64,000 nt of DNA, taken from the NCBI GenBank assembly GCA_965200965.1, contig OZ241744.1, positions 2,592,001-2,656,000 on the forward strand. The letters are read 5' to 3'. Made by a program: the position numbers and the translations under genes. Below are positions 5,061 through 42,572 of the stretch, piece after piece. Origin of the DNA: an uncultured Candidatus Binatia bacterium. GTDB lineage: Bacteria > Desulfobacterota > Binatia > Bin18. The notes beneath the pieces were generated by a model. It ran no database searches. It saw only the letters and a program-made list of their open reading frames with translations, and was not told the origin of the DNA. Every line of letters starts with the position of its first letter. Position 1 is the first letter of the stretch.

Positions 5061-5083
5061 TCTGTGGTGGCGTCGCCCGACTC

Positions 5084-5130
5084 AAAAGGGAATCGTGATA
5101 GAAATTGAAGGGGCATCACGATTCCCTTGT
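5084..5130. repeat. Palindromic element family 2, intergenic copy (may also act as comEC terminator)
   Basis: AAGGGAATCGTGAT...ATCACGATTCCCTT; same GGGAATCGTGA arm as copies at 18437 and 19707. Confidence 0.7.
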
Positions 5131-5192
5131 TCCGGTGGACGCCCGGCGGCGGGTCGTGTAGATTCTGGTCTTTGACACGAAAGGCGGTGCTT

Positions 5193-6041
5193 ATGGCTGG
5201 CAGTTCGTCTGAGACAACAGCGTTTGATCTGCGGGTCTTTTCCTATCTGCCCAACCCCCGGATCTGGAAAGCGACCATTGCCGCCCGGCTGTGCGGTGTC
5301 CGGCTCGACCTCAGAGGGGGCAAACCCCAAGAGCTATCGAACTGGCTGTGGGACTTTGACGCCCAGCCGTTGACCGATGCGGAGCGGAAGGCGTCGCCGG
5401 CGACCGAACGACAGGGGCGGACTGGCTTTTCAGGCCGCCTGCACAAGACCGGGGCATTTCTGGACGCCCATCCGTTCGGTACCGTGCCGGCCGCCTTCAG
5501 CCCGGATGGGACGGTCGGCATCTTTGAATCCAACAGCATCATGCGGGCCGTGGCCCGGCTGGGTCAGGACGCCTGTCCCCTGTACGGCACAGATGCGTAT
5601 GCCGCGGCGCGTATCGACAGCTTTCTTGACGCCAGCCTGGTTTTTGCCCGGGATATGCAGCTGTATCTGCTGGCCCTTGCCGACGGCTCGCTCACGGCCG
5701 AGCTCCAGACCCGCATGAAGGACGCCTTTGGGGTCTATCTGGGCGGCATTGAGCGGGCCTTGGTGCCGAACCGGCATTTCCTGGTCGGCGATGCCATCAC
5801 GCTGGCCGATATCTGTTTTGTGGCCGAACTGACGCTCTTCTCAAACGAGAAGGCACAGGCGAGCCGCCTGGCCGCACAGGGTCTGGAGTGCGTTTTTCAC
5901 GACACAGTCGCGGCGCAATTTCCAAGAGCTTTTGCCCACTATGCCAAGCTGTGTCAGCATCCGGCGTTTCGGCCTGATGTGGCACCCTATGTAGAGAAGC
6001 TCGACCGCGCCATTGCCAGGGACAGACACACTGGACGCTGA
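5193..6041 (+). CDS. Glutathione S-transferase family protein (EF1B-gamma-like GST)
   Basis: HPFGTVPA, IFESNSIMRAV and FLVGDAITLADI GST motifs. Confidence 0.85.
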   Translation: MAGSSSETTAFDLRVFSYLPNPRIWKATIAARLCGVRLDLRGGKPQELSNWLWDFDAQPLTDAERKASPATERQGRTGFSGRLHKTGAFLDAHPFGTVPAAFSPDGTVGIFESNSIMRAVARLGQDACPLYGTDAYAAARIDSFLDASLVFARDMQLYLLALADGSLTAELQTRMKDAFGVYLGGIERALVPNRHFLVGDAITLADICFVAELTLFSNEKAQASRLAAQGLECVFHDTVAAQFPRAFAHYAKLCQHPAFRPDVAPYVEKLDRAIARDRHTGR

Positions 6042-6204
6042 TAGCCTCCTGCTCAGCAGCACGTCATCGTCCACGCCCCGCATTGCTCTCACAACCCGCC
6101 ATAATTGATTGCCCGGTGTCCCTCTGGCACAATGGCTTACCCGGTACGGAGGGATGACTGTCCGGTTGTTCCTCCTTTTCCGTATGGAGCGGAAGGGAGA
6201 CAGG

Positions 6205-11173: not shown

Positions 11174-11224
11174 GAGGACGAAGTGTGTCACCAGATCGCC
11201 AGGAAGGCGGCACGTTTCGTCCTT
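11174..11224. repeat. 51-bp palindromic element family 1, intergenic
   Basis: GAGG ACGAAG TGTGTCA CCAGATCGCCAG GAAGGCGGCACG TTTCGT CCTT. Confidence 0.85.
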
Positions 11225-11292: not shown

Positions 11293-12648
11293 TTACCTGC
11301 CCTGTCCCTGCTCCCCTTTTTCTTGAAGATCAGAGGTCTGTGCTGCTGCGTCACGGACGCGGATTTGGCCCGAGAGGAGCTTGGGCAGCAGGGTATCCCG
11401 GAGGGCGGCGAGGACAGCAGATTCTTGCATATTGACGACAGTCCGCCGATACAGAGGACGGACGGCGGTATCGAAAGCCAGCAGCAGGGGCCGAGGAGGA
11501 ATGAGTACCGGCAGAGGACGAAAGGTCTGTTTGCTAATCTCCGCAAAGGTCGAGCCGCCCGCAATGGCCTTGATGGCCTCCAGATGTTCAGCGCACCAGT
11601 GCAGGACATACCAATGGGAAAGCCGACCGGGACAAATCAGGGCGATGAAGCCTTGGTTGATCGCTGTGGGCACTTCGGTCATCGCCAAGTAGCCAATCGG
11701 AGCCCGAGAGGACAGCAGGACGGTTCCGACAGGGAGCAGCCCCGAGCTGATTTTTTCAAGCCCGGCGTCACTGATTTTGCGGGCGGTGTTCAGCAGGACG
11801 GGTGAGGTCAGCTTGGCGAGGTCCTTGGGTGTGGCCCAGTAATGGCGGGCGTCGTGCCAATAGGCGGGTTCTTTGGTACTTGGGGTTCCTCCCCCGACCG
11901 CCTGAGTCTCTTGACCGATTGTGGACAACTCCCACCCGGCGGGAATCGGCCCCAATGCCGAGTCTACAAAGCGATCGGGGAATAAGGCCGCTAGGGCCGG
12001 CTCCAGCCGGTCCAGATAGGCCCGGGCCACCAGCCATGCACTTCCCCCTGGAGACGCGCGTTGTGTGAGAGCGGCTTTGGCACGCACGGGGTCGAAATGG
12101 ACAAACCACGAGGTGAACAGGGCCCGGGCTATGTCGTCGAGGGTGGCGTTCATGCGCCGGTTCACCTCGATCTTGGCGTCAAGCGTACCGAGGATGTGGG
12201 CGATGGTGCGCTGCTCAGCCAGCGGCGGAACGCGGACCGGAAGGCTATAGAACGCTTCGCGGGTAGTCGAGGGGATCGCCGAGCCGCTGTCGAGGCCATT
12301 GATGTCATGGCTCAGCAATTCGTAGTAGGCCCAGCGAACATCAAATTGTACTCTTTGCTTCAGATAGAAAGCGGTGTCGATGACAAAGAACGGACCTGGG
12401 GTGTACTGAACGCCCAATGTCCCCTTACGTCCAACGATAACGCTGGGCCCAGCGTCCAGCATGTCAGTGTGCCACCCGATTGGGCCATTCGTCCCAAAAA
12501 CTGGATACTGCCCTTCTGCTGACCGATAACCGCGGAGTGCTTTGCCGTACTCAAGCGTTGCCAACTCGCCCCAGATACAGGAATGCCACGACCGGCCCGC
12601 CGTCTGATCTGTGCCTGTCACCACACGCTGCCGCGGCTCGCTCCGCAT
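11293..12648 (-). CDS. hsdS: Type I R-M specificity subunit (no hsdM/hsdR in window)
   Basis: Two TRDs with conserved spacers VPPLAEQRTIAHILGTLD, IPAGWE and LRDTLLPKLLSG. Confidence 0.93.
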   Translation of the reverse strand: MRSEPRQRVVTGTDQTAGRSWHSCIWGELATLEYGKALRGYRSAEGQYPVFGTNGPIGWHTDMLDAGPSVIVGRKGTLGVQYTPGPFFVIDTAFYLKQRVQFDVRWAYYELLSHDINGLDSGSAIPSTTREAFYSLPVRVPPLAEQRTIAHILGTLDAKIEVNRRMNATLDDIARALFTSWFVHFDPVRAKAALTQRASPGGSAWLVARAYLDRLEPALAALFPDRFVDSALGPIPAGWELSTIGQETQAVGGGTPSTKEPAYWHDARHYWATPKDLAKLTSPVLLNTARKISDAGLEKISSGLLPVGTVLLSSRAPIGYLAMTEVPTAINQGFIALICPGRLSHWYVLHWCAEHLEAIKAIAGGSTFAEISKQTFRPLPVLIPPRPLLLAFDTAVRPLYRRTVVNMQESAVLAALRDTLLPKLLSGQIRVRDAAAQTSDLQEKGEQGQGR

Positions 12649-13349
12649 CAGGAGTCCTGCGGGCCGTTTTCCTGGCGGGCCTCTTTGCGGGCCCGGCGAC
12701 CCAGGTAGCCGCCGTGGTGGAACTTGGCGTAGTCGGCCTTGGTGAAGCCCTTGCGGTCCATCAGCACCAGGGCCAGGGCGTCGCCAAGGGCCATCATGGC
12801 CGCGGTGCTTGACGAGGGGGTGAGGCCGAGCGAGCAGGCTTCTTTGACCGCGCCGATACTCAGCACCACATCGCTCTGGCGGGCTATGGGCGAGCGCGGG
12901 TGGCCGGTGATGGCGATCAGCGGCAGACTGTTGAGCGCTTTGGCCCGGCCTAGCATCTCGATGACTTCCCGCGTTTTGCCGCTGTTGGAGAAGATGATCA
13001 TCACGTCGTCGGGGCTGACGAGGCCGAGATCGCCGTGGGCGGCTTCTCCGGGGTGGAGAAAGCAGGCCGGCGTGCCGGTTGATGACAAGGTGGTGGCGGT
13101 TTTCAGGGCGATGATGCCGACCTTGCCCATGCCGGTGGTGATGACCTTGCCCTTGCAGTGCTGCAAAATCTGGACCGCACGCAGGAAATCGGCGGTGAGC
13201 GGAATGGCCCGGATGGCCTCGGCCTCGGCGGTCAGCACGGCCCGGGCCCGGACGAGTTCGGGGGGCAGGTCAAAAGCAGTGAACGTGTCATCAGATCGAC
13301 CGGAAGGCGACACATTCACTCCTCGCGGCTTGTTCTTGCGGGGCGGCAT
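12648..13349 (-). CDS. KpsF/GutQ-family SIS sugar-phosphate isomerase (no CBS domains)
   Basis: TTGMGK, HPGEAAHGDLG, SNSGKT, EAC.LGLTP and FHHGGYLG. Confidence 0.9.
   Translation of the reverse strand: MPPRKNKPRGVNVSPSGRSDDTFTAFDLPPELVRARAVLTAEAEAIRAIPLTADFLRAVQILQHCKGKVITTGMGKVGIIALKTATTLSSTGTPACFLHPGEAAHGDLGLVSPDDVMIIFSNSGKTREVIEMLGRAKALNSLPLIAITGHPRSPIARQSDVVLSIGAVKEACSLGLTPSSSTAAMMALGDALALVLMDRKGFTKADYAKFHHGGYLGRRARKEARQENGPQDS
13274..13324. repeat. 51-bp palindromic element family 1, in frame in the KpsF-like N-terminus
   Basis: Encodes RGVNVSPSGRSDDTFTAF; 41-bp core is the exact reverse complement of 15572-15612. Confidence 0.92.
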
Positions 13350-16042: not shown

Positions 16043-17038
16043 TTATGTCCGGCCCACTTTCTGCAACAGCGCCTCGACGAGCGCATCCGGCTGTATGCCC
16101 TCGGCTTCGGCCTGAAAGTTGAGCAGACAGCGGTGTCGCAGTGCCGGCAGGGCCACATCGGCGATGTCTTCGTAGCTGACATTCACCCGCCTATCCAACA
16201 ACGCGTTGACTTTCGCCCCCAGGGTCATGGCCTGCGCACCCCGGGGGCTGGGACCAAAGCGCAGATACTGGTTGATCTCGGGCAGGGCCTCTGGATTGCC
16301 CGGGGTGGCCGAGGCAATCAGGCGGGCGATGTAGCGGTTCAGCGGCGGGGCCAGCAGGACTTCCCGGACAAGCCGCTTCAGTTCTTCCACCTTGGCCGCG
16401 GCCTGCTCTTCAGAGTTGAGCAGCGCGTGCGCCTCAGCCCGCTCGTCGGCGGTCGTCCGGTTGAGGATCTCGGTCAGTTCCTCGGTACTGGGCGGGTGAA
16501 TGATGAGCTTGAACAAAAATCGGTCGAGTTGGGCTTCGGGCAGCGGATAGGTGCCCTCAATTTCAATCGGATTCTGGGTCGCCATGACAAAAAAGGGCGG
16601 GGGCAGGCGGTGGGTCTGGCCAAACACCGAGACTTGGTGTTCCTCCATCGCCTCCAGAATGGCCGACTGGGTTTTGGGCGTGGCCCGGTTGACCTCATCG
16701 GCCAGCACAATATGGGTGAAAACCGGACCTGGTTTGAACACAAGTTCGCCGCGGCTCCCGGACAAGATTTCTGTGCCCACAATATCCGACGGCATCAGGT
16801 CGGGGGTAAACTGAATCCGCTTGGCACCTAAGGTCACCGCCTGACTTAGGGATTTCATCAGCAGGGTTTTGCCCAAGCCGGGCGCACTCTCCAGCAGGAC
16901 ATGCCCTCCAGCAAAAAAGGCTGTCAGCACCTTGCTCACAATCTCGCGATTGCCGACAATAACGCGCCCGACCTCCTCCTCCAGCGCGCTGAAGAACTGA
17001 CAAAAGCGCCCGATTCGATCTTCGTCTGCCTGGATCAT
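16043..17038 (-). CDS. MoxR family AAA+ ATPase
   Basis: APGLGKT, RIQFTPDLMPSD, DEVNRATPKTQSA and EGTYPLPEAQLDRF. Confidence 0.95.
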   Translation of the reverse strand: MIQADEDRIGRFCQFFSALEEEVGRVIVGNREIVSKVLTAFFAGGHVLLESAPGLGKTLLMKSLSQAVTLGAKRIQFTPDLMPSDIVGTEILSGSRGELVFKPGPVFTHIVLADEVNRATPKTQSAILEAMEEHQVSVFGQTHRLPPPFFVMATQNPIEIEGTYPLPEAQLDRFLFKLIIHPPSTEELTEILNRTTADERAEAHALLNSEEQAAAKVEELKRLVREVLLAPPLNRYIARLIASATPGNPEALPEINQYLRFGPSPRGAQAMTLGAKVNALLDRRVNVSYEDIADVALPALRHRCLLNFQAEAEGIQPDALVEALLQKVGRT

Positions 17039-18519
17039 TCTGTCCTGGGGTCAGCATCGTCTACCGCATTGAGAAGCGGACGGTACTCCAGGGGGATCGG
17101 CTGGCGTACCCGCGCTGGGCCGCGCTGCCGGTCCGTGAGCGGGGCGTTGCTGTACGGTGTTCTGGGCCGGGCTGGGCTGGTATTGGCCGTGCGTTGCCAG
17201 GTGTCGCTCCGGGCCACCTCTCCGACCGGTACCCGGACTTTGACAAAGCGCGCGTCTCTGGTCAGAAAACCGCCCGGTTTTTCTCCAGCCTGGACACGGG
17301 CTTTTCCTTGGCTTGGGCCTTTGCCGCCGCCCTGCCCTTTGGGGCCGGCCCGGTTGGGGTCGGACTGGGGACCGGGCGTATTTCTGTCCGGTCGGTGTCG
17401 CTCCCCGGGGATATTCGGGTCGTCTCCTTGGGCGCGCTGGGTGGGGGCGTGTCGGGGCGACACACCCCTCGCCCCGTCTGCCTGTTGCTCAGCCGGGGGT
17501 TGCTGTTGGCCGTGCCGCTCTGTCTGCTCAAATTGAATACCGCCACCCTGTTGGGACGGCTTGTGGTTCTGATCGCCCTCTGACGGCCCGGCATCCCGCG
17601 GCTGTTGGCCGGCTTGGGTCCCCTCGGCCGCGGAGGAAGGTGTGTTGAGTCCCTCGGACTGTTTGGCGAGGTCCTGTTTCTGATTGCCGCCCGCCCCGTC
17701 ATTCCGGCCCTCAGCAACAAACAACTTCAGGTCAATTGGCAGCAGTTGCGGTAGCCGGATATCCAGTGTAATACGCTGCTCAGCCTCCTCAATCAGGCGT
17801 TCTTTCTGGCGGCGGCTCAGACCCGGCATCCTGAGTTGCTCAACCAGGGCGACAAGTTCGGTGCCGGCCGCTTGCTCCTGTGGCGTGTTGCCCTGAGCCG
17901 CCAGCTCACGCGTCTTTTTTTCGAGTTCGGCCAGGGACTCGGATGAGGGGTCGAGGCTGGGAGAGAGCCGTGCCGAAATGGGCTGAGGCTGAGGCCGCGG
18001 CCAGAACAGGCCCAGGGCGACGGCCACACACAGGCCGGACACCAGCAGGCCGATTGGCACACGCCTGTCCAGCTGGAAGGGTACCTCCCGTTCTGGAACA
18101 AAAAACGCCGCCCGTCTGGCCGTGTCACGCTGGAGAAAGAGCGCCATGTGGTCTGGAGGCTGAGCGAGGGTTACCAGGGTCAGAAAGCGCTCTTTGCTCA
18201 GCGTTTTTTCGTCCAGCAGCGCGGCCGCGGTCTCGTGGCTCATGTGGACGTGACGCAGGGTCTTCCAGAAGAAGAAAGCCCACCCTCCGAGGGGACCGAG
18301 CAACAGGGTGAGCGGCCAGGACAAGCTCACCAGCGTCAATGAACCGCCCAGCCCAAGTGCCAGCCCCAGGGGCAGAAAAAAGCTCAGGATGTTGAGATAG
18401 CGGTGCCGACGGAGGCGCTGAGCCGTCCTGTTGATAACGCCGGGAATCATGACCTCCTTGTGATCGCTGTTGTCACGATTCCCGGTGTGGGCCGGAGGCG
18501 GGCGGCTGGGGTCTTGCAC
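17035..18519 (-). CDS. Membrane protein with coiled-coil and G/Q/P-rich tail (MoxR-associated hypothetical)
   Basis: 3 TM-like segments, low-complexity tail, IPLEYR C-terminus; overlaps the MoxR start by 4 nt. Confidence 0.75.
   Translation of the reverse strand: MQDPSRPPPAHTGNRDNSDHKEVMIPGVINRTAQRLRRHRYLNILSFFLPLGLALGLGGSLTLVSLSWPLTLLLGPLGGWAFFFWKTLRHVHMSHETAAALLDEKTLSKERFLTLVTLAQPPDHMALFLQRDTARRAAFFVPEREVPFQLDRRVPIGLLVSGLCVAVALGLFWPRPQPQPISARLSPSLDPSSESLAELEKKTRELAAQGNTPQEQAAGTELVALVEQLRMPGLSRRQKERLIEEAEQRITLDIRLPQLLPIDLKLFVAEGRNDGAGGNQKQDLAKQSEGLNTPSSAAEGTQAGQQPRDAGPSEGDQNHKPSQQGGGIQFEQTERHGQQQPPAEQQADGARGVSPRHAPTQRAQGDDPNIPGERHRPDRNTPGPQSDPNRAGPKGQGGGKGPSQGKARVQAGEKPGGFLTRDARFVKVRVPVGEVARSDTWQRTANTSPARPRTPYSNAPLTDRQRGPARVRQPIPLEYRPLLNAVDDADPRTE
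17441..17470. repeat. Short REP-like hairpin inside the low-complexity CDS tail
   Basis: GTGGGGGCGTGTCG-GGG-CGACACACCCCTC. Confidence 0.4.
18437..18488. repeat. ~52-bp palindromic element family 2, in frame near the CDS 5' end
   Basis: ACGCCGGGAATCATGAC...GTCACGATTCCCGGTGT; encodes TGNRDNSDHKEVMIPG; 30 bp identical (inverted) to the 19707 copy. Confidence 0.9.
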
Positions 18520-18528
18520 GGATCTGTC

Positions 18529-19560
18529 CTAAGAGCGGCTGGGGGAGCGGTATCTTTGAAAACGCCGGACAGCCCGATTGTGCTCGGCCAGGCTGGATGA
18601 AAAATGATGGGTGCCATCGCCGCGAGCCACAAAGTACAGGTAGTCGGTGTCTGCCGGGTAGAGGGCAGCCCGCAGGGCAGCCAGGCCGGGGCTGGCGATC
18701 GGGCCGGGCGGCAGGCCCCGGATCACATAGGTGTTATACGGCGTTGGCGTGCGCAGGTGATGACGGGTGAGATTGCCGTCAAAGTTCTCGATGCCATAGA
18801 TAACGGTCGGGTCGCACTGGAGCCGGATGCCCCTGCGGAGCCGATTATGAATCACCGCGGCGATCAGCGGGCGTTCGGCAGCCTGGCCGGTCTCTTTTTC
18901 AATAATTGAGGCCAGCGTCACCACCTCGTGCAGGCTCAGCCCAAGCTCGGCCGCCCGCCGAGCTTGGGCCAAGTCCCAGGCGGCATAAAAACGGGCGATC
19001 ATGCGGCCCAGGATATCCCGGGCCGAGGCGTGGGCCGAGAACTGATAGGTGGCCGGGTAGAGGTAGCCTTCGAGGCTGTTGGCCGGCAGTCCCCAGTCGG
19101 CCAGAAACCCAGGGTCGGCATTCAGACACAGAAAACTCTCCACCGTCCCAAACCCCTGCCGTTCCAGCAACTGCGCGATCTGAGCCAGGTTGAATCCCTC
19201 TGGAATAGTGACGGTCCGGCGCACGAGTTGGCCCCGGTTCAGCCGGTTGAGCAGAGCCAGCGGAGACAGCGACCCGACAAAGACGTATTCGCCGTGCTTG
19301 ATGTGTCTGTCCATGCCGCTCAGGCGGGCCCACAGGCGAAAGACCCAGACCTGACTGAGCAGCCCTTCGGCGTGCAGATGCCGGGCAATTGCTTTCAATG
19401 ACGAGCCGCTTTGGACAAAGAAACGAACCGGCTGGTGCAGCGGTGGCTCCGGTGTGACCAAGGCACGATGGCCAAACCAGGCAACACTCCCACCGAGCAG
19501 GAGCGGCACAAGCAGGATGGCCAGAAACAGGTGGCGCTTTCCCCGCTTGCCTGTCCGCAT
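18529..19560 (-). CDS. mltG: Endolytic transglycosylase MltG
   Basis: TIPEG, LEGYLYPATY, LASIIEKET, LQCDPTVIY and YNTY..GLPPGPI. Confidence 0.96.
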   Translation of the reverse strand: MRTGKRGKRHLFLAILLVPLLLGGSVAWFGHRALVTPEPPLHQPVRFFVQSGSSLKAIARHLHAEGLLSQVWVFRLWARLSGMDRHIKHGEYVFVGSLSPLALLNRLNRGQLVRRTVTIPEGFNLAQIAQLLERQGFGTVESFLCLNADPGFLADWGLPANSLEGYLYPATYQFSAHASARDILGRMIARFYAAWDLAQARRAAELGLSLHEVVTLASIIEKETGQAAERPLIAAVIHNRLRRGIRLQCDPTVIYGIENFDGNLTRHHLRTPTPYNTYVIRGLPPGPIASPGLAALRAALYPADTDYLYFVARGDGTHHFSSSLAEHNRAVRRFQRYRSPSRS

Positions 19561-19681
19561 AGCAAAAGACACTACCATTCCCCGCTCTGCAACACAATCT
19601 CGGCGGCCGCGGTCGTTCTTGACATTCCTGTCTGGGGCTGGCAAGCTTGGCTGTATTCTCCACCGGGGGGCTGAATACGAG

Positions 19682-21178
19682 ATGGGACGGAACACGGGCG
19701 CTTTCCACACCGGGAATCGTGACAACAGCGATCACACCCAACTCAGGATTCCCTGTGTCACCCATACAGCGCAACATGGCTCCATTCAGTTCCTGATTCT
19801 GGCTCCTGTTCTGACCCTTTGCCTTTTAGGGCTTATTGTCCGCAGCGCCAGTTCGGCCGTCGATCATCGGATTGAAAAGCAAAAGATCGCCGAACAACTC
19901 AGGCAGCGTTTGAGCGAGGTCTACAGCGACCCCACTCCGCCGCGGCTGAGCCGCCCCGCTCCGGAGCCGACGGCTGAGCCGCCCGCTGTGGCTGAGCCGG
20001 CCGCTGCTCAAGTGGCAGCTGCAACTGCCGAGCAGCCATCTCAGCCCCAATCCTTCCCGCTCCAGACCACGCACACGGTGCGCAAGAAGGATACCTTTGA
20101 GACCATACTGCGAGGCCAGGGGCTTGGCCGGAGCGCCGCCAGCACCTGGATTACGGCCTGGATTACGGCCGCCGGAAAAGAGAAGCAAGTCCGCAATCTG
20201 CAAATCGATCGGCGCTTCTCTTTTGTTTTTGATGAAGGTCCCGAAGAGCCGCTTCTGACCAGTCTGAGCTATGACCTCAGCGCCCTCTCACGGCTGACTC
20301 TTGAACGAAGGCCAGACGGCAACGTTACCTCCCGCCTCGAAGCGCTGCCGACCAGCCTGGTGTGGCGGGCGGTCTCTGGCCGGATTACCAGTAGTCTGTA
20401 CGAGGCGGCGGTAAACACCGCCGGGGTGCCCGACCGTATTGTTGACGAAATGATTGATCTGGGCTGGGATTTCGATTTCTCTTCCGACCTGAGGGCCGGC
20501 GACACCTTCAAGGTGATCTTTGAAGAATACCAGCGTGACGGCCAGCCGGTTCAATATGGGCGAGTCCTGGCGACTGAAATCGTCAATCAAGGCAAGTCCT
20601 CGACAGTCTTGTCACTTGACCAAACCGAGGGCTTCCTGCGCTATCCGCTGCGTTTCACCCGGATTTCGTCGGTGTTTACCAAGGCCAGGTTTCATCCTGT
20701 TCTCAAACGTCACCGGCCTCATAACGGCGTTGATTTTGCCGCCCCACGCGGTACGCCGGTACGGGCGGTGGCCAATGGGAGGGTCACCTGCGCCGGTTGG
20801 GAGGGCGGGTTTGGTCGGCTTGTCCGCATTGACCATCCTGGGGCGTACTCCACCGAGTACGCCCATCTGCATAGCATTGCCAAAGGGATCAGGGTTGGAG
20901 TGCGGGTCAAGCGTGGTCAAAAAATTGGCAGTGTAGGTTCGACCGGTTTGGCCACTGGACCGCATCTCCACTTCGGGCTGTTCAAGAATGGCAGATATGT
21001 AAATCCGTTGAGCGCAAACCTTCCCAGAGTTCCGAAAACCGATACGCGCAAACCGGACCCGGTCCGGGCCAAGCTGAAAAAAACGCTGACCGAATACCTG
21101 GCTCGGCTGGAGCCTGACCAGGCCTCAACTTTTGCCGCGGTAGAAACGACCAAGCCGCCAAGCCGGCCCCGCTCCTGA
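19682..21178 (+). CDS. M23 family peptidoglycan endopeptidase (MepM-like)
   Basis: HNGVDFAA, YAHL and STGLATGPHLHF; N-terminal TM; start uncertain. Confidence 0.92.
   Translation: MGRNTGAFHTGNRDNSDHTQLRIPCVTHTAQHGSIQFLILAPVLTLCLLGLIVRSASSAVDHRIEKQKIAEQLRQRLSEVYSDPTPPRLSRPAPEPTAEPPAVAEPAAAQVAAATAEQPSQPQSFPLQTTHTVRKKDTFETILRGQGLGRSAASTWITAWITAAGKEKQVRNLQIDRRFSFVFDEGPEEPLLTSLSYDLSALSRLTLERRPDGNVTSRLEALPTSLVWRAVSGRITSSLYEAAVNTAGVPDRIVDEMIDLGWDFDFSSDLRAGDTFKVIFEEYQRDGQPVQYGRVLATEIVNQGKSSTVLSLDQTEGFLRYPLRFTRISSVFTKARFHPVLKRHRPHNGVDFAAPRGTPVRAVANGRVTCAGWEGGFGRLVRIDHPGAYSTEYAHLHSIAKGIRVGVRVKRGQKIGSVGSTGLATGPHLHFGLFKNGRYVNPLSANLPRVPKTDTRKPDPVRAKLKKTLTEYLARLEPDQASTFAAVETTKPPSRPRS
19707..19758. repeat. 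~52-bp palindromic element family 2, in frame with the M23 ORF N-terminus
   Basis: ACACCGGGAATCGTGACAACAGCGATCACACCCAACTCAGGATTCCCTGTGT; encodes TGNRDNSDHTQLRIPC. Confidence 0.9.
20145..20170 (+). repeat. Exact 12-bp in-frame tandem duplication (WITA x2)
   Basis: CCTGGATTACGG twice. Confidence 0.85.
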
Positions 21179-21578: not shown

Positions 21579-21613
21579 ACACAGGGAGCCGTGATCTCCT
21601 TGCAGTCGCTGAT
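21579..21613. repeat. Degenerate partial copy of element family 2 between rplU and rpmA
   Basis: ACACAGGGAGCCGTGATCTCCTTGCAGTCGCTG aligns with ACGCCGGGAATCATGACCTCCTTGTGATCGCTG (18437). Confidence 0.55.
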
Positions 21614-21649
21614 ATTCTCACATGTTCTACACAGTCGGGAGGACGAATC

Positions 21650-38626: not shown

Positions 38627-38667
38627 CAGTCCTGTAGGTCGGCTTAGCCGGCAGGCGTAAGCCGGCG
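38627..38667 (+). repeat. GTAG-type REP-like hairpin, copy 1
   Basis: CAGTCCT GTAG GTCGGCTTAGCC GGCA GGCGTAAGCCGGC; 35/38 identical to the 42483 copy. Confidence 0.88.
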
Positions 38668-42466: not shown

Positions 42467-42572
42467 GGGTCAATATCCCTTCCAGTCCTGTAGGTCGGCG
42501 TAGCCGCCGGGCGTAAGCCGACACAATGAAAAGACTCCCAGCCTGCTGATAGCTACCGGAGATGCACGGCAT
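42459..42572 (-). pseudogene. Possible truncated gene start (MPCISG...) running into the REP-like hairpin
   Basis: ATG overlaps the 3' end of the upstream ORF; after ~16 codons it enters the hairpin and ends at 37 aa. Confidence 0.4.
42483..42522 (+). repeat. GTAG-type REP-like hairpin, copy 2
   Basis: CAGTCCT GTAG GTCGGCGTAGCC GCCG GGCGTAAGCCGAC. Confidence 0.88.

What the first reader, a model, noticed from the sequence alone, without database searches (positions are those of the whole stretch)
18437..19758. Second ~52-bp palindromic family (GGGAATCGTGA arms), also in frame in N-termini
Seen: copies at 18437-18488 and 19707-19758 share 30 identical bp and both encode HTGNRDNSDH...IP near the 5' ends of two unrelated genes. 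Related copies lie at 5084-5130 and 21579-21613 (partial, between rplU and rpmA). Size and stem-loop layout match family 1 but the sequence differs. The 18437 copy also carries AAGGAGG-TC-ATG, which could donate a start. Inference: at least two parallel element families share a mechanism.
Basis: partly seen in the sequence, partly recalled or inferred. Interest (0 to 1): 0.72.

Follow-up and report, generated by a model that had tools for sequence, protein, structure and literature searches.

The report
Hairpin mini-element read inside bacterial genes
A 53-base hairpin-shaped piece of DNA, likely selfish, has inserted at many sites in one genus of uncultured Binatia bacteria; two copies here lie in the reading frame just after the start of two unrelated genes and are likely translated, much like the known palindromic elements of Rickettsia, and no enzyme that could move it was found.

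Summary
Confirmed. The two copies share 30 bp (32 with flank). They belong to family F2: 10 copies in this genome, 8 within 34 kb, and about 55-75 model matches (both strands counted) in four congeners. Orthologous sites in relatives are empty and start codons are conserved upstream, so both copies lie in frame in N-terminal tails. Two more sit in frame in AddA/AddB-like genes. The AAGGAGG-TC-ATG start-donor idea is unsupported. F2 is a sister of family 1 (95 copies) and of a third family (44 copies), not an unrelated parallel family. Its unit is a 53-bp palindrome plus a 1-bp target duplication (31 of 50 sites, 12.9 expected), giving 54 bp = 18 codons; family 1 inserts 51 bp bluntly. No transposase was found in seven Pfam searches. 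It works like Rickettsia palindromic elements (RPEs) but is not a member. This scan already reported 51/54-bp Binatia elements on other DNA, including family 1 in this genome. Beyond the summaries I saw, this adds the family relationships, the junction anatomy and the local cluster.

The parts
18437..18488 (-). F2 copy A, in frame at about codons 11-27 of the 494-aa gene
   Evidence: filled in G007, absent at this site in G001 and G003-G006; G002 has a different insert
19707..19758 (+). F2 copy B, in frame at about codons 9-26 of the M23 peptidase gene
   Evidence: filled in G007, absent in G001-G006
5082..5135 (+). F2 copy C, intergenic between comEC and the next gene; 54-bp difference against the empty site in G007
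21579..21633 (-). F2 copy D, decayed, between rplU and rpmA
   Evidence: filled in G007, absent in G001-G006 and G014
17035..18519 (-). 494-aa gene with no Pfam or NCBIfam family (hydrophobic segments near the N-terminus by eye), between mltG and a MoxR-type ATPase; GTG start at 18519 aligns with the ATG of orthologues
19682..21178 (+). M23 peptidase gene (MepM/ShyA-like); ATG at 19682 is conserved and is the only in-frame ATG, GTG or TTG in the first 50 codons
18448..18459 (-). AAGGAGG-TC-ATG inside copy A; specific to this lineage, judged incidental
6026..6079 (+). copy of sister family F3
13275..13323 (+). one of seven family-1 copies in the window (others start at 11175, 15568, 33592, 34135, 34788, 51990)

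Best explanation
F2 is a 53-bp palindromic insertion element with no coding capacity for its own movement, likely copied into new sites by a nuclease or transposase acting in trans, and its two N-terminal copies here are in frame and likely translated as tolerated, functionless extensions. Shown: inverted arms with conserved AAAGG/CCTTT ends and compensatory changes; filled and empty sites; a duplicated flanking base at most sites (53+1 = 54 bp, 18 codons); open frames on both strands; kinship with families 1 and 3; local clustering. Inferred: a dimeric enzyme recognises the two symmetric arms, cuts a loosely palindromic target with a 0-1 nt stagger and joins the hairpin, often near the donor. 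The enzyme was probably carried by a transient mobile element now lost from this genome. Selection then removes frameshifting insertions, so units that add 51 or 54 bp accumulate in genes, mostly in tails and loops. F2 had its burst after the split from G004 and before the split from G007 and is now decaying here, while family 1 has spread more recently.
For: Empty orthologous sites in G004 at 7 of 7 cluster sites where it aligned; 7 of 8 cluster copies shared with G007. Filled-minus-empty difference is 54 bp in 7 of 11 comparisons I judged clean by eye (others 51, 52, 53, 68; unclear alignments dropped). Among 50 distinct F2 sites, the bases next to the 51-bp core pair in 39 (25.5 expected) and the next bases out are identical in 31 (12.9 expected; z 6.1). 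Positions 4, 5, 10 and 11 of the arms are invariant in 33 of 33 cores, while position 6 flips G-C/C-G in 18 versus 11. Covariation exceeds 500 of 500 shuffles on a 17-sequence alignment. Symmetric flank bias: C at -4 in 41 and G at +4 in 47 of 71 family-1 copies, also seen outside genes. Kinship score F2 vs F3 9.4 and F2 vs F1 4.2, against shuffles of about -1.6 (sd 0.6-0.8). Eight of 10 copies lie in 34 kb (0 of 200,000 uniform draws); the most similar family-1 copy lies within 50 kb in 15 of 84 cases versus 3.7 expected. The AddB-like insert is 54 bp in G007 and trimmed in frame to 42 bp here.
Against: No candidate enzyme. No Y1_Tnp, Transposase_20, Resolvase, DDE_Tnp_1, rve, DDE_3, DDE_Tnp_IS1595 or DUF559 match in this 99.3% complete genome, although family 1 has spread recently (16 of 20 alignable sites empty in G007). 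No long element bounded by these arms in this genome. No DDE, IS110 or serine-transposase gene next to 8 lone arms in G005/G006 (40 of 76 candidate ORFs scanned). A 53-bp unit is very short for a classical two-ended transpososome (general knowledge). Junctions differ between families and are imprecise; F3 shows no clean duplication. F3 shows no local-copy signal (1 of 43). Translation is untested. The 50-site set was picked with an arm pattern, which inflates arm conservation though not the flank signal.
Confidence: 0.6

Rival explanations
1. No dedicated enzyme: the hairpins are copied by template switching at replication forks or during break repair by host proteins, which would explain local spread, self-correcting arms and ragged junctions.
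For: No transposase found. Local clustering. Copies A and B are identical over 32 nt here but differ at 8 of 32 in G007, while the rest differs at 8 of 22, suggesting recent gene conversion. F2/F3 chimera at genome 2,476,223-2,476,270.
Against: Fixed unit length, invariant arm positions and a symmetric target bias. A 1-bp duplication at most F2 sites. Nine exact 51-bp family-1 insertions, several without microhomology. No strand bias by replichore: 51 of 95 and 3 of 10.
Confidence: 0.22
2. A REP/REPIN-like element moved as single-stranded DNA by an HUH (RAYT or IS200-like) transposase.
For: Hairpin with structural covariation. Y1_Tnp genes occur in 3 of 7 congeners.
Against: No Y1_Tnp here or in G003, G004, G005 or G007. 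No F1 or F2 match within about 1.5 kb of 30 Y1_Tnp loci; the G006 gene is flanked by GTAG-type repeats instead. No GTAG/CGTC tag, no fixed tetranucleotide target, no replichore bias.
Confidence: 0.1
3. Copying through an RNA intermediate and reverse transcription.
For: One reverse transcriptase locus exists, intact in G007. By my reading, 9 of 10 F2 copies have the purine-rich loop on the sense strand.
Against: That RT is broken by a stop here and is closest to antiviral Drt2 (below cut-off). Family-1 copies between co-directional genes are 7 sense versus 15 antisense (counted). The excess inside genes matches the number of open frames.
Confidence: 0.04
4. The copies are selected regulatory parts (terminators, mRNA stabilisers, protein-binding sites or donated starts).
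For: Strong hairpins near gene boundaries; the SD-ATG in copy A.
Against: Sites are lineage-specific and empty in close relatives; copies decay; some lie deep inside coding domains; the SD-ATG is absent in G007. No Rfam match in window 1-36000.
Confidence: 0.04

Closest known systems
Rickettsia palindromic elements (RPEs; Ogata et al. 2000, 2002; seen only through passages of PMC2229807, PMC10969869, PMC3733652 and PMC3184786)
   Same: Short palindromic repeats in several families, found between genes and fused in frame inside unrelated, conserved protein genes.
   Different: RPEs are 105-146 bp (PMC2229807) and are said to end in CGTC (PMC3733652). These are 51-53 bp single hairpins without that tag, in a different phylum. 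Here filled/empty pairs give the junctions, which PMC2229807 lists as '?' for RPEs.
Bacterial MITEs (Correia, RUP, Nezha; passages of PMC3184786, PMC2229807, PMC3733652)
   Same: Terminal inverted repeats, no transposase gene, empty and filled sites, a short target duplication in F2.
   Different: Smaller than the 70-300 bp range; no TA target; no partner IS with the same ends found; arms tolerate compensatory change.
REPs/REPINs with RAYT (passages of PMC3116915 and PMC3733652)
   Same: Hairpin-forming, clustered, lineage-specific families.
   Different: No GTAG/CGTC tag, no doublet-plus-spacer layout, no RAYT beside them, often intragenic. A separate GTAG-type family of about 16 copies exists in this genome.
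Cyanobacterial small dispersed repeats (Elhai et al. 2008; paper not held, title and one sentence seen in PMC2884548, rest recalled) and yeast mitochondrial GC42 (passages of PMC4478555)
   Same: Very small mobile repeats with no known dedicated transposase; GC42 is a 42-nt palindrome with a putative 2-nt target duplication.
   Different: Different sizes and hosts; no sequence comparison was made.

Membership tests
Rickettsia palindromic elements | palindromic repeat forming a stem-loop | tested here: met
Rickettsia palindromic elements | in-frame insertion in unrelated conserved protein genes | tested here: met
Rickettsia palindromic elements | length about 105-146 bp | tested here: not met
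   51-53 bp versus PMC2229807
Rickettsia palindromic elements | sequence homology to RPE families | not tested
   no RPE sequences were fetched; extended F2 hairpins were almost all in Binatia records
Rickettsia palindromic elements | insert is translated and the protein stays active | not testable with these tools
   inferred from conserved upstream starts only
MITE | terminal inverted repeats around a non-coding core | tested here: met
MITE | target-site duplication | tested here: inconclusive
   1 bp in 31 of 50 F2 sites; weak in F1 (29 of 82, 20 expected); not clean in F3
MITE | autonomous IS sharing the ends | tested here: not met
   whole genomes of relatives were not scanned for all transposase families
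REP/REPIN | GTAG or CGTC terminal tag | tested here: not met
   consensus
REP/REPIN | associated RAYT gene flanked by the repeat | tested here: not met
IS200/IS605-type single-strand element | orientation bias by replichore and fixed tetra/pentanucleotide target (features recalled) | tested here: not met
Integron attC site | RYYYAAC/GTTRRRY core ends and cassette array (features recalled) | tested here: not met
   consensus lacks them; only two tyrosine recombinases, of XerC/D size
Rfam RNA families | match to a covariance model | tested here: not met
   0 matches at E<=1 in window 1-36000

The most novel reading that the evidence does not exclude
A genus-wide superfamily of 51-53-bp hairpin elements whose unit plus junction length has been tuned by selection to whole codons (51+0, 53+1), spreading by short-range hops with an enzyme that is not any known transposase, possibly a host replication or repair protein. 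This would be a transposase-free route to protein-lengthening insertions and a tractable model for how RPE-type elements move.
Probability: 0.2. Interest if true: 0.75.

Novelty: new variant of a known kind. Interest (0 to 1): 0.42.

Why it matters
In-frame palindromic insertions have been known since the Rickettsia work, but to my knowledge how they move is still open. This genus offers several related families with dated bursts, exact filled/empty junctions and a genome in which seven transposase families were not found. That gives concrete constraints: unit length, a 1-bp duplication, a symmetric target bias and local hopping. It also matters for annotation: such inserts lengthen N-termini and can create false start sites. 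The two N-terminal copies themselves look neutral.

Tried and rejected
Enzyme search in this genome. No match for PF01797, PF00239, PF04480, PF02371, PF01609, PF00665, PF13358 or PF12762. PF00589 gave two proteins of XerC/D size, PF01541 one (UvrC by size and recalled sequence), PF00078 one broken RT. Other transposase families (IS66, IS256, IS91, IS1380 and others) were not searched. Dispersed repeats of 300 bp or more fell into 20 regions, none with an obvious transposase ORF by eye. Lone arms did not pair around a gene in this genome. Eight lone-arm loci in G005/G006 gave metabolic and other host genes; the only transposase in that scan was the 176-aa Y1 protein about 5 kb from an F2 copy in G006. 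Viral contigs: 0 matches to one F2 and one F1 pattern. Metagenome contigs: 0 matches to the F2 pattern.

A 3-bp duplication model for F2 was considered after and dropped: in the cleaned set only the middle base holds (full 3-bp match 5 of 50). Replichore bias: none. My automatic in-frame classifier was conservative (5 in frame, 5 with a stop in the flank, 40 not internal) and missed cases seen by eye, so I give no in-frame fraction. No RNA holder was listed. Strain-level differences inside copies A and B remain unread.

Papers: passages only of PMC3184786, PMC3733652, PMC3116915, PMC4478555, PMC2229807, PMC2884548 and PMC10969869. Ogata 2002 and Elhai 2008 are not held. No paper on these Binatia elements turned up in the listings; subscription journals and supplements were not seen.

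Full report
Observation. They share 30 identical bases from their first position, or 32 with flank. Both are hairpins with 14-17-bp arms. The related copies at 5082-5135 and 21579-21633 are real; the latter is full length but decayed. Four public runs from three studies cover all four copies, and no listed joint skips them. Two of these runs are labelled sponge metagenome, from one study. Relatives carrying the same repeat are titled Candidatus Binatia/Binatota.

The family. An iterated profile finds 10 F2 copies in the 3.62-Mb genome; the best hit on the reversed genome has E 1.3. Eight copies lie between 2,580,000 and 2,613,600, which 0 of 200,000 uniform draws reproduce. A covariance model gives 56-75 matches in G001, G003, G005 and G006, 16-17 in G007 and here, 1 in G004 and 0 in G002. 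These counts include both strands, and only 150 candidates were scored per genome. A strict pattern matched 4 of 6 congeners and 0 of 294 other genomes of the class; it also missed this genome's decayed copies. So F2 is restricted to the genus among those searched.

It is an insertion element. Aligning orthologous regions shows the site empty in G004 at 7 of 7 cluster sites that aligned. G007, about 90% identical, shares 7 of the 8 copies and is empty at copy C by exactly 54 bp. That last case could also be a later loss. The burst therefore falls between the two splits (inference). Family 1 is younger. Of 21 copies in the 394 kb of G007 that I fetched, 20 aligned: 16 are empty (9 by exactly 51 bp), 2 are shared and 2 are unclear.

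In frame in the N-termini. For the 494-aa gene, the ATG of G001 and G003-G006 aligns with a GTG at 18519 here and in G007, ten codons upstream of the element. For the M23 peptidase gene, the ATG at 19682 is matched in all seven congeners. It is the only in-frame ATG, GTG or TTG in the first 50 codons, which include the start of the hydrophobic segment. Both inserts thus fall in short N-terminal tails before hydrophobic segments, where extra residues are plausibly harmless (inference). The SD-ATG in copy A has 2-nt spacing, and G007 has neither the SD nor the ATG there. I take it as a chance product of decay.

Other in-frame copies. Just outside the window, F2 copies sit in frame in an AddA-like helicase and inside the PD-(D/E)XK domain of the AddB-like gene, a few residues after the DYK motif. 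That insert is 54 bp in G007 and trimmed in frame to 42 bp here. Relatives carry further in-frame copies, one in a gene I recall as uvrB. Three of the six frames are nearly always open (stops in 2 of 33 cores each) and a fourth often is (8 of 33).

Anatomy. I collected 119 pattern matches from this genome and from the fetched parts of relatives, and collapsed them to 50 distinct sites by flank similarity; non-Binatia loci were set aside by title and a pairing filter. Thirty-three have a 51-bp core: 15-bp arms ending AAAGG/CCTTT and a variable purine-rich 21-nt loop. The bases next to the core pair with each other in 39 of 50 (25.5 expected). The next bases out are identical in 31 of 50 (12.9 expected; z 6.1). 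That reads as a 53-bp palindrome plus a 1-bp target duplication, 54 bp in all. It matches the 54-bp filled-minus-empty difference in 7 of 11 clean comparisons (others 51, 52, 53, 68). Copies A and B are a variant with a loop 3 nt shorter and shared outer bases, consistent with one being copied from the other. They are identical over 32 nt here but differ at 8 of 32 in G007. Two of four runs assemble straight through both copies, which implies no shared 31-mer there. Recent gene conversion is therefore likely.

Relation to family 1. Family 1 has 95 copies and a third family, F3, has 44; the three sets do not overlap. F2 cores align to F3 (mean best score 9.4) and to F1 (4.2), against about -1.6 for shuffles that keep the base pairs. 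The F1 signal is strand-specific (reverse complement -2.2). An F2/F3 chimera exists. So they are one superfamily, or at least share an end motif. Junctions differ: family 1 is mostly blunt, with a weak 1-bp signal outside genes (20 of 49 versus 12.1 expected), and F3 gives no clean pattern. All three show a loose symmetric flank bias, with C to the left and G or A to the right at about four bases.

Mechanism. Fixed length, invariant symmetric arm positions, a symmetric target bias and a 0-1 bp duplication point to a dimeric enzyme acting in trans (inference). Local spread is shown for F2 and for family 1 (15 of 84 nearest-sequence neighbours within 50 kb versus 3.7 expected; 52 of 95 with a neighbour within 3 kb versus 13.6), but not for F3. 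Against this, no candidate enzyme was found: seven transposase or recombinase families and DUF559 are absent here, the only RT is broken, and no longer element carries these ends. An HUH route is disfavoured by the lack of replichore bias and of a neighbouring Y1 gene. Copying by host replication or repair proteins remains the main rival.

Comparison and novelty. It works like the Rickettsia palindromic elements, which reviews describe as 105-146-bp palindromes fused in frame in conserved genes (passages of PMC2229807 and PMC10969869). It fails the size and tag tests, and homology was not tested, so I do not file it as an RPE. It is also not a REP/REPIN, and it is not a classical MITE with a known partner IS. 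No paper on these Binatia elements appeared in eight searches of the held library. Earlier agents of this scan reported family 1 in this genome and 51/54-bp elements in other Binatia genomes; I saw only their summaries.

Verdict. Real and mobile, and a variant of a known kind. The added value is the family relationships, the 53+1 junction, the dated local cluster and the missing enzyme. Interest 0.42.

Noticed in passing
genome 2,476,223-2,476,270 (outside the window): Chimeric hairpin with one F2-type arm and one F3-type arm.
   Followed up: no
L038 near 12,850 (genome 2,584,853), start of the AddA-like gene: G000/G007 carry an F2 copy and G005/G006 an F3 copy at nearly the same junction, suggesting independent insertions at one tolerant spot; G002 has a different insert at the copy-A site.
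   Followed up: no
L038 near 8,020 (genome 2,580,020): Gene starting MIVGIDIGG (pantothenate-kinase-like by recall) carries a 51-bp in-frame F2 copy; its frame is 163 aa here but 315 aa in G007, so it may be frameshifted further downstream.
   Followed up: partly
L300:1048-2421 (genome about 2,405 kb): Reverse transcriptase closest to antiviral Drt2 (below cut-off), split by a TAG here, 428 aa open in G007.
   Followed up: partly
window 38627-38664 and 42483-42520: A separate GTAG-type REP family, about 16 copies genome-wide, with no Y1/RAYT gene left in this genome.
   Followed up: partly
G007:C1:879,500-883,500: Family-1 copies in frame in genes I recall as pth (one copy) and ispE (two copies).
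   Followed up: no
genome 1,689 kb, 2,820 kb and 3,366 kb: Three CRISPR-like arrays of 128, 224 and 85 exact repeats.
   Followed up: no
genome 272-306 kb and 1,132-1,165 kb: Two 33-kb tandem arrays of closely related genes, the first three about 820-830 aa.
   Followed up: no
genome 130,843, 2,416,700 and 2,728,206: A dispersed three-copy repeat of 400-680 bp, mostly without a called gene.
   Followed up: no
window about 11,300-12,230: Region that breaks up and varies among the four runs and is partly repeated at genome 1,270 kb; the gene looks like a type I restriction specificity subunit by recall.
   Followed up: no
G005:C4 and G006:C8 fetched regions: A further related family (arms with GAAACGTGT/GAAACGTAT), with two 54-bp filled/empty pairs that look like 52 bp plus a 2-bp duplication.
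   Followed up: partly
whole genome: Family-1 copies are enriched near the inferred origin at about 2.48 Mb: 54 of 95 within 600 kb versus 33% expected.
   Followed up: partly
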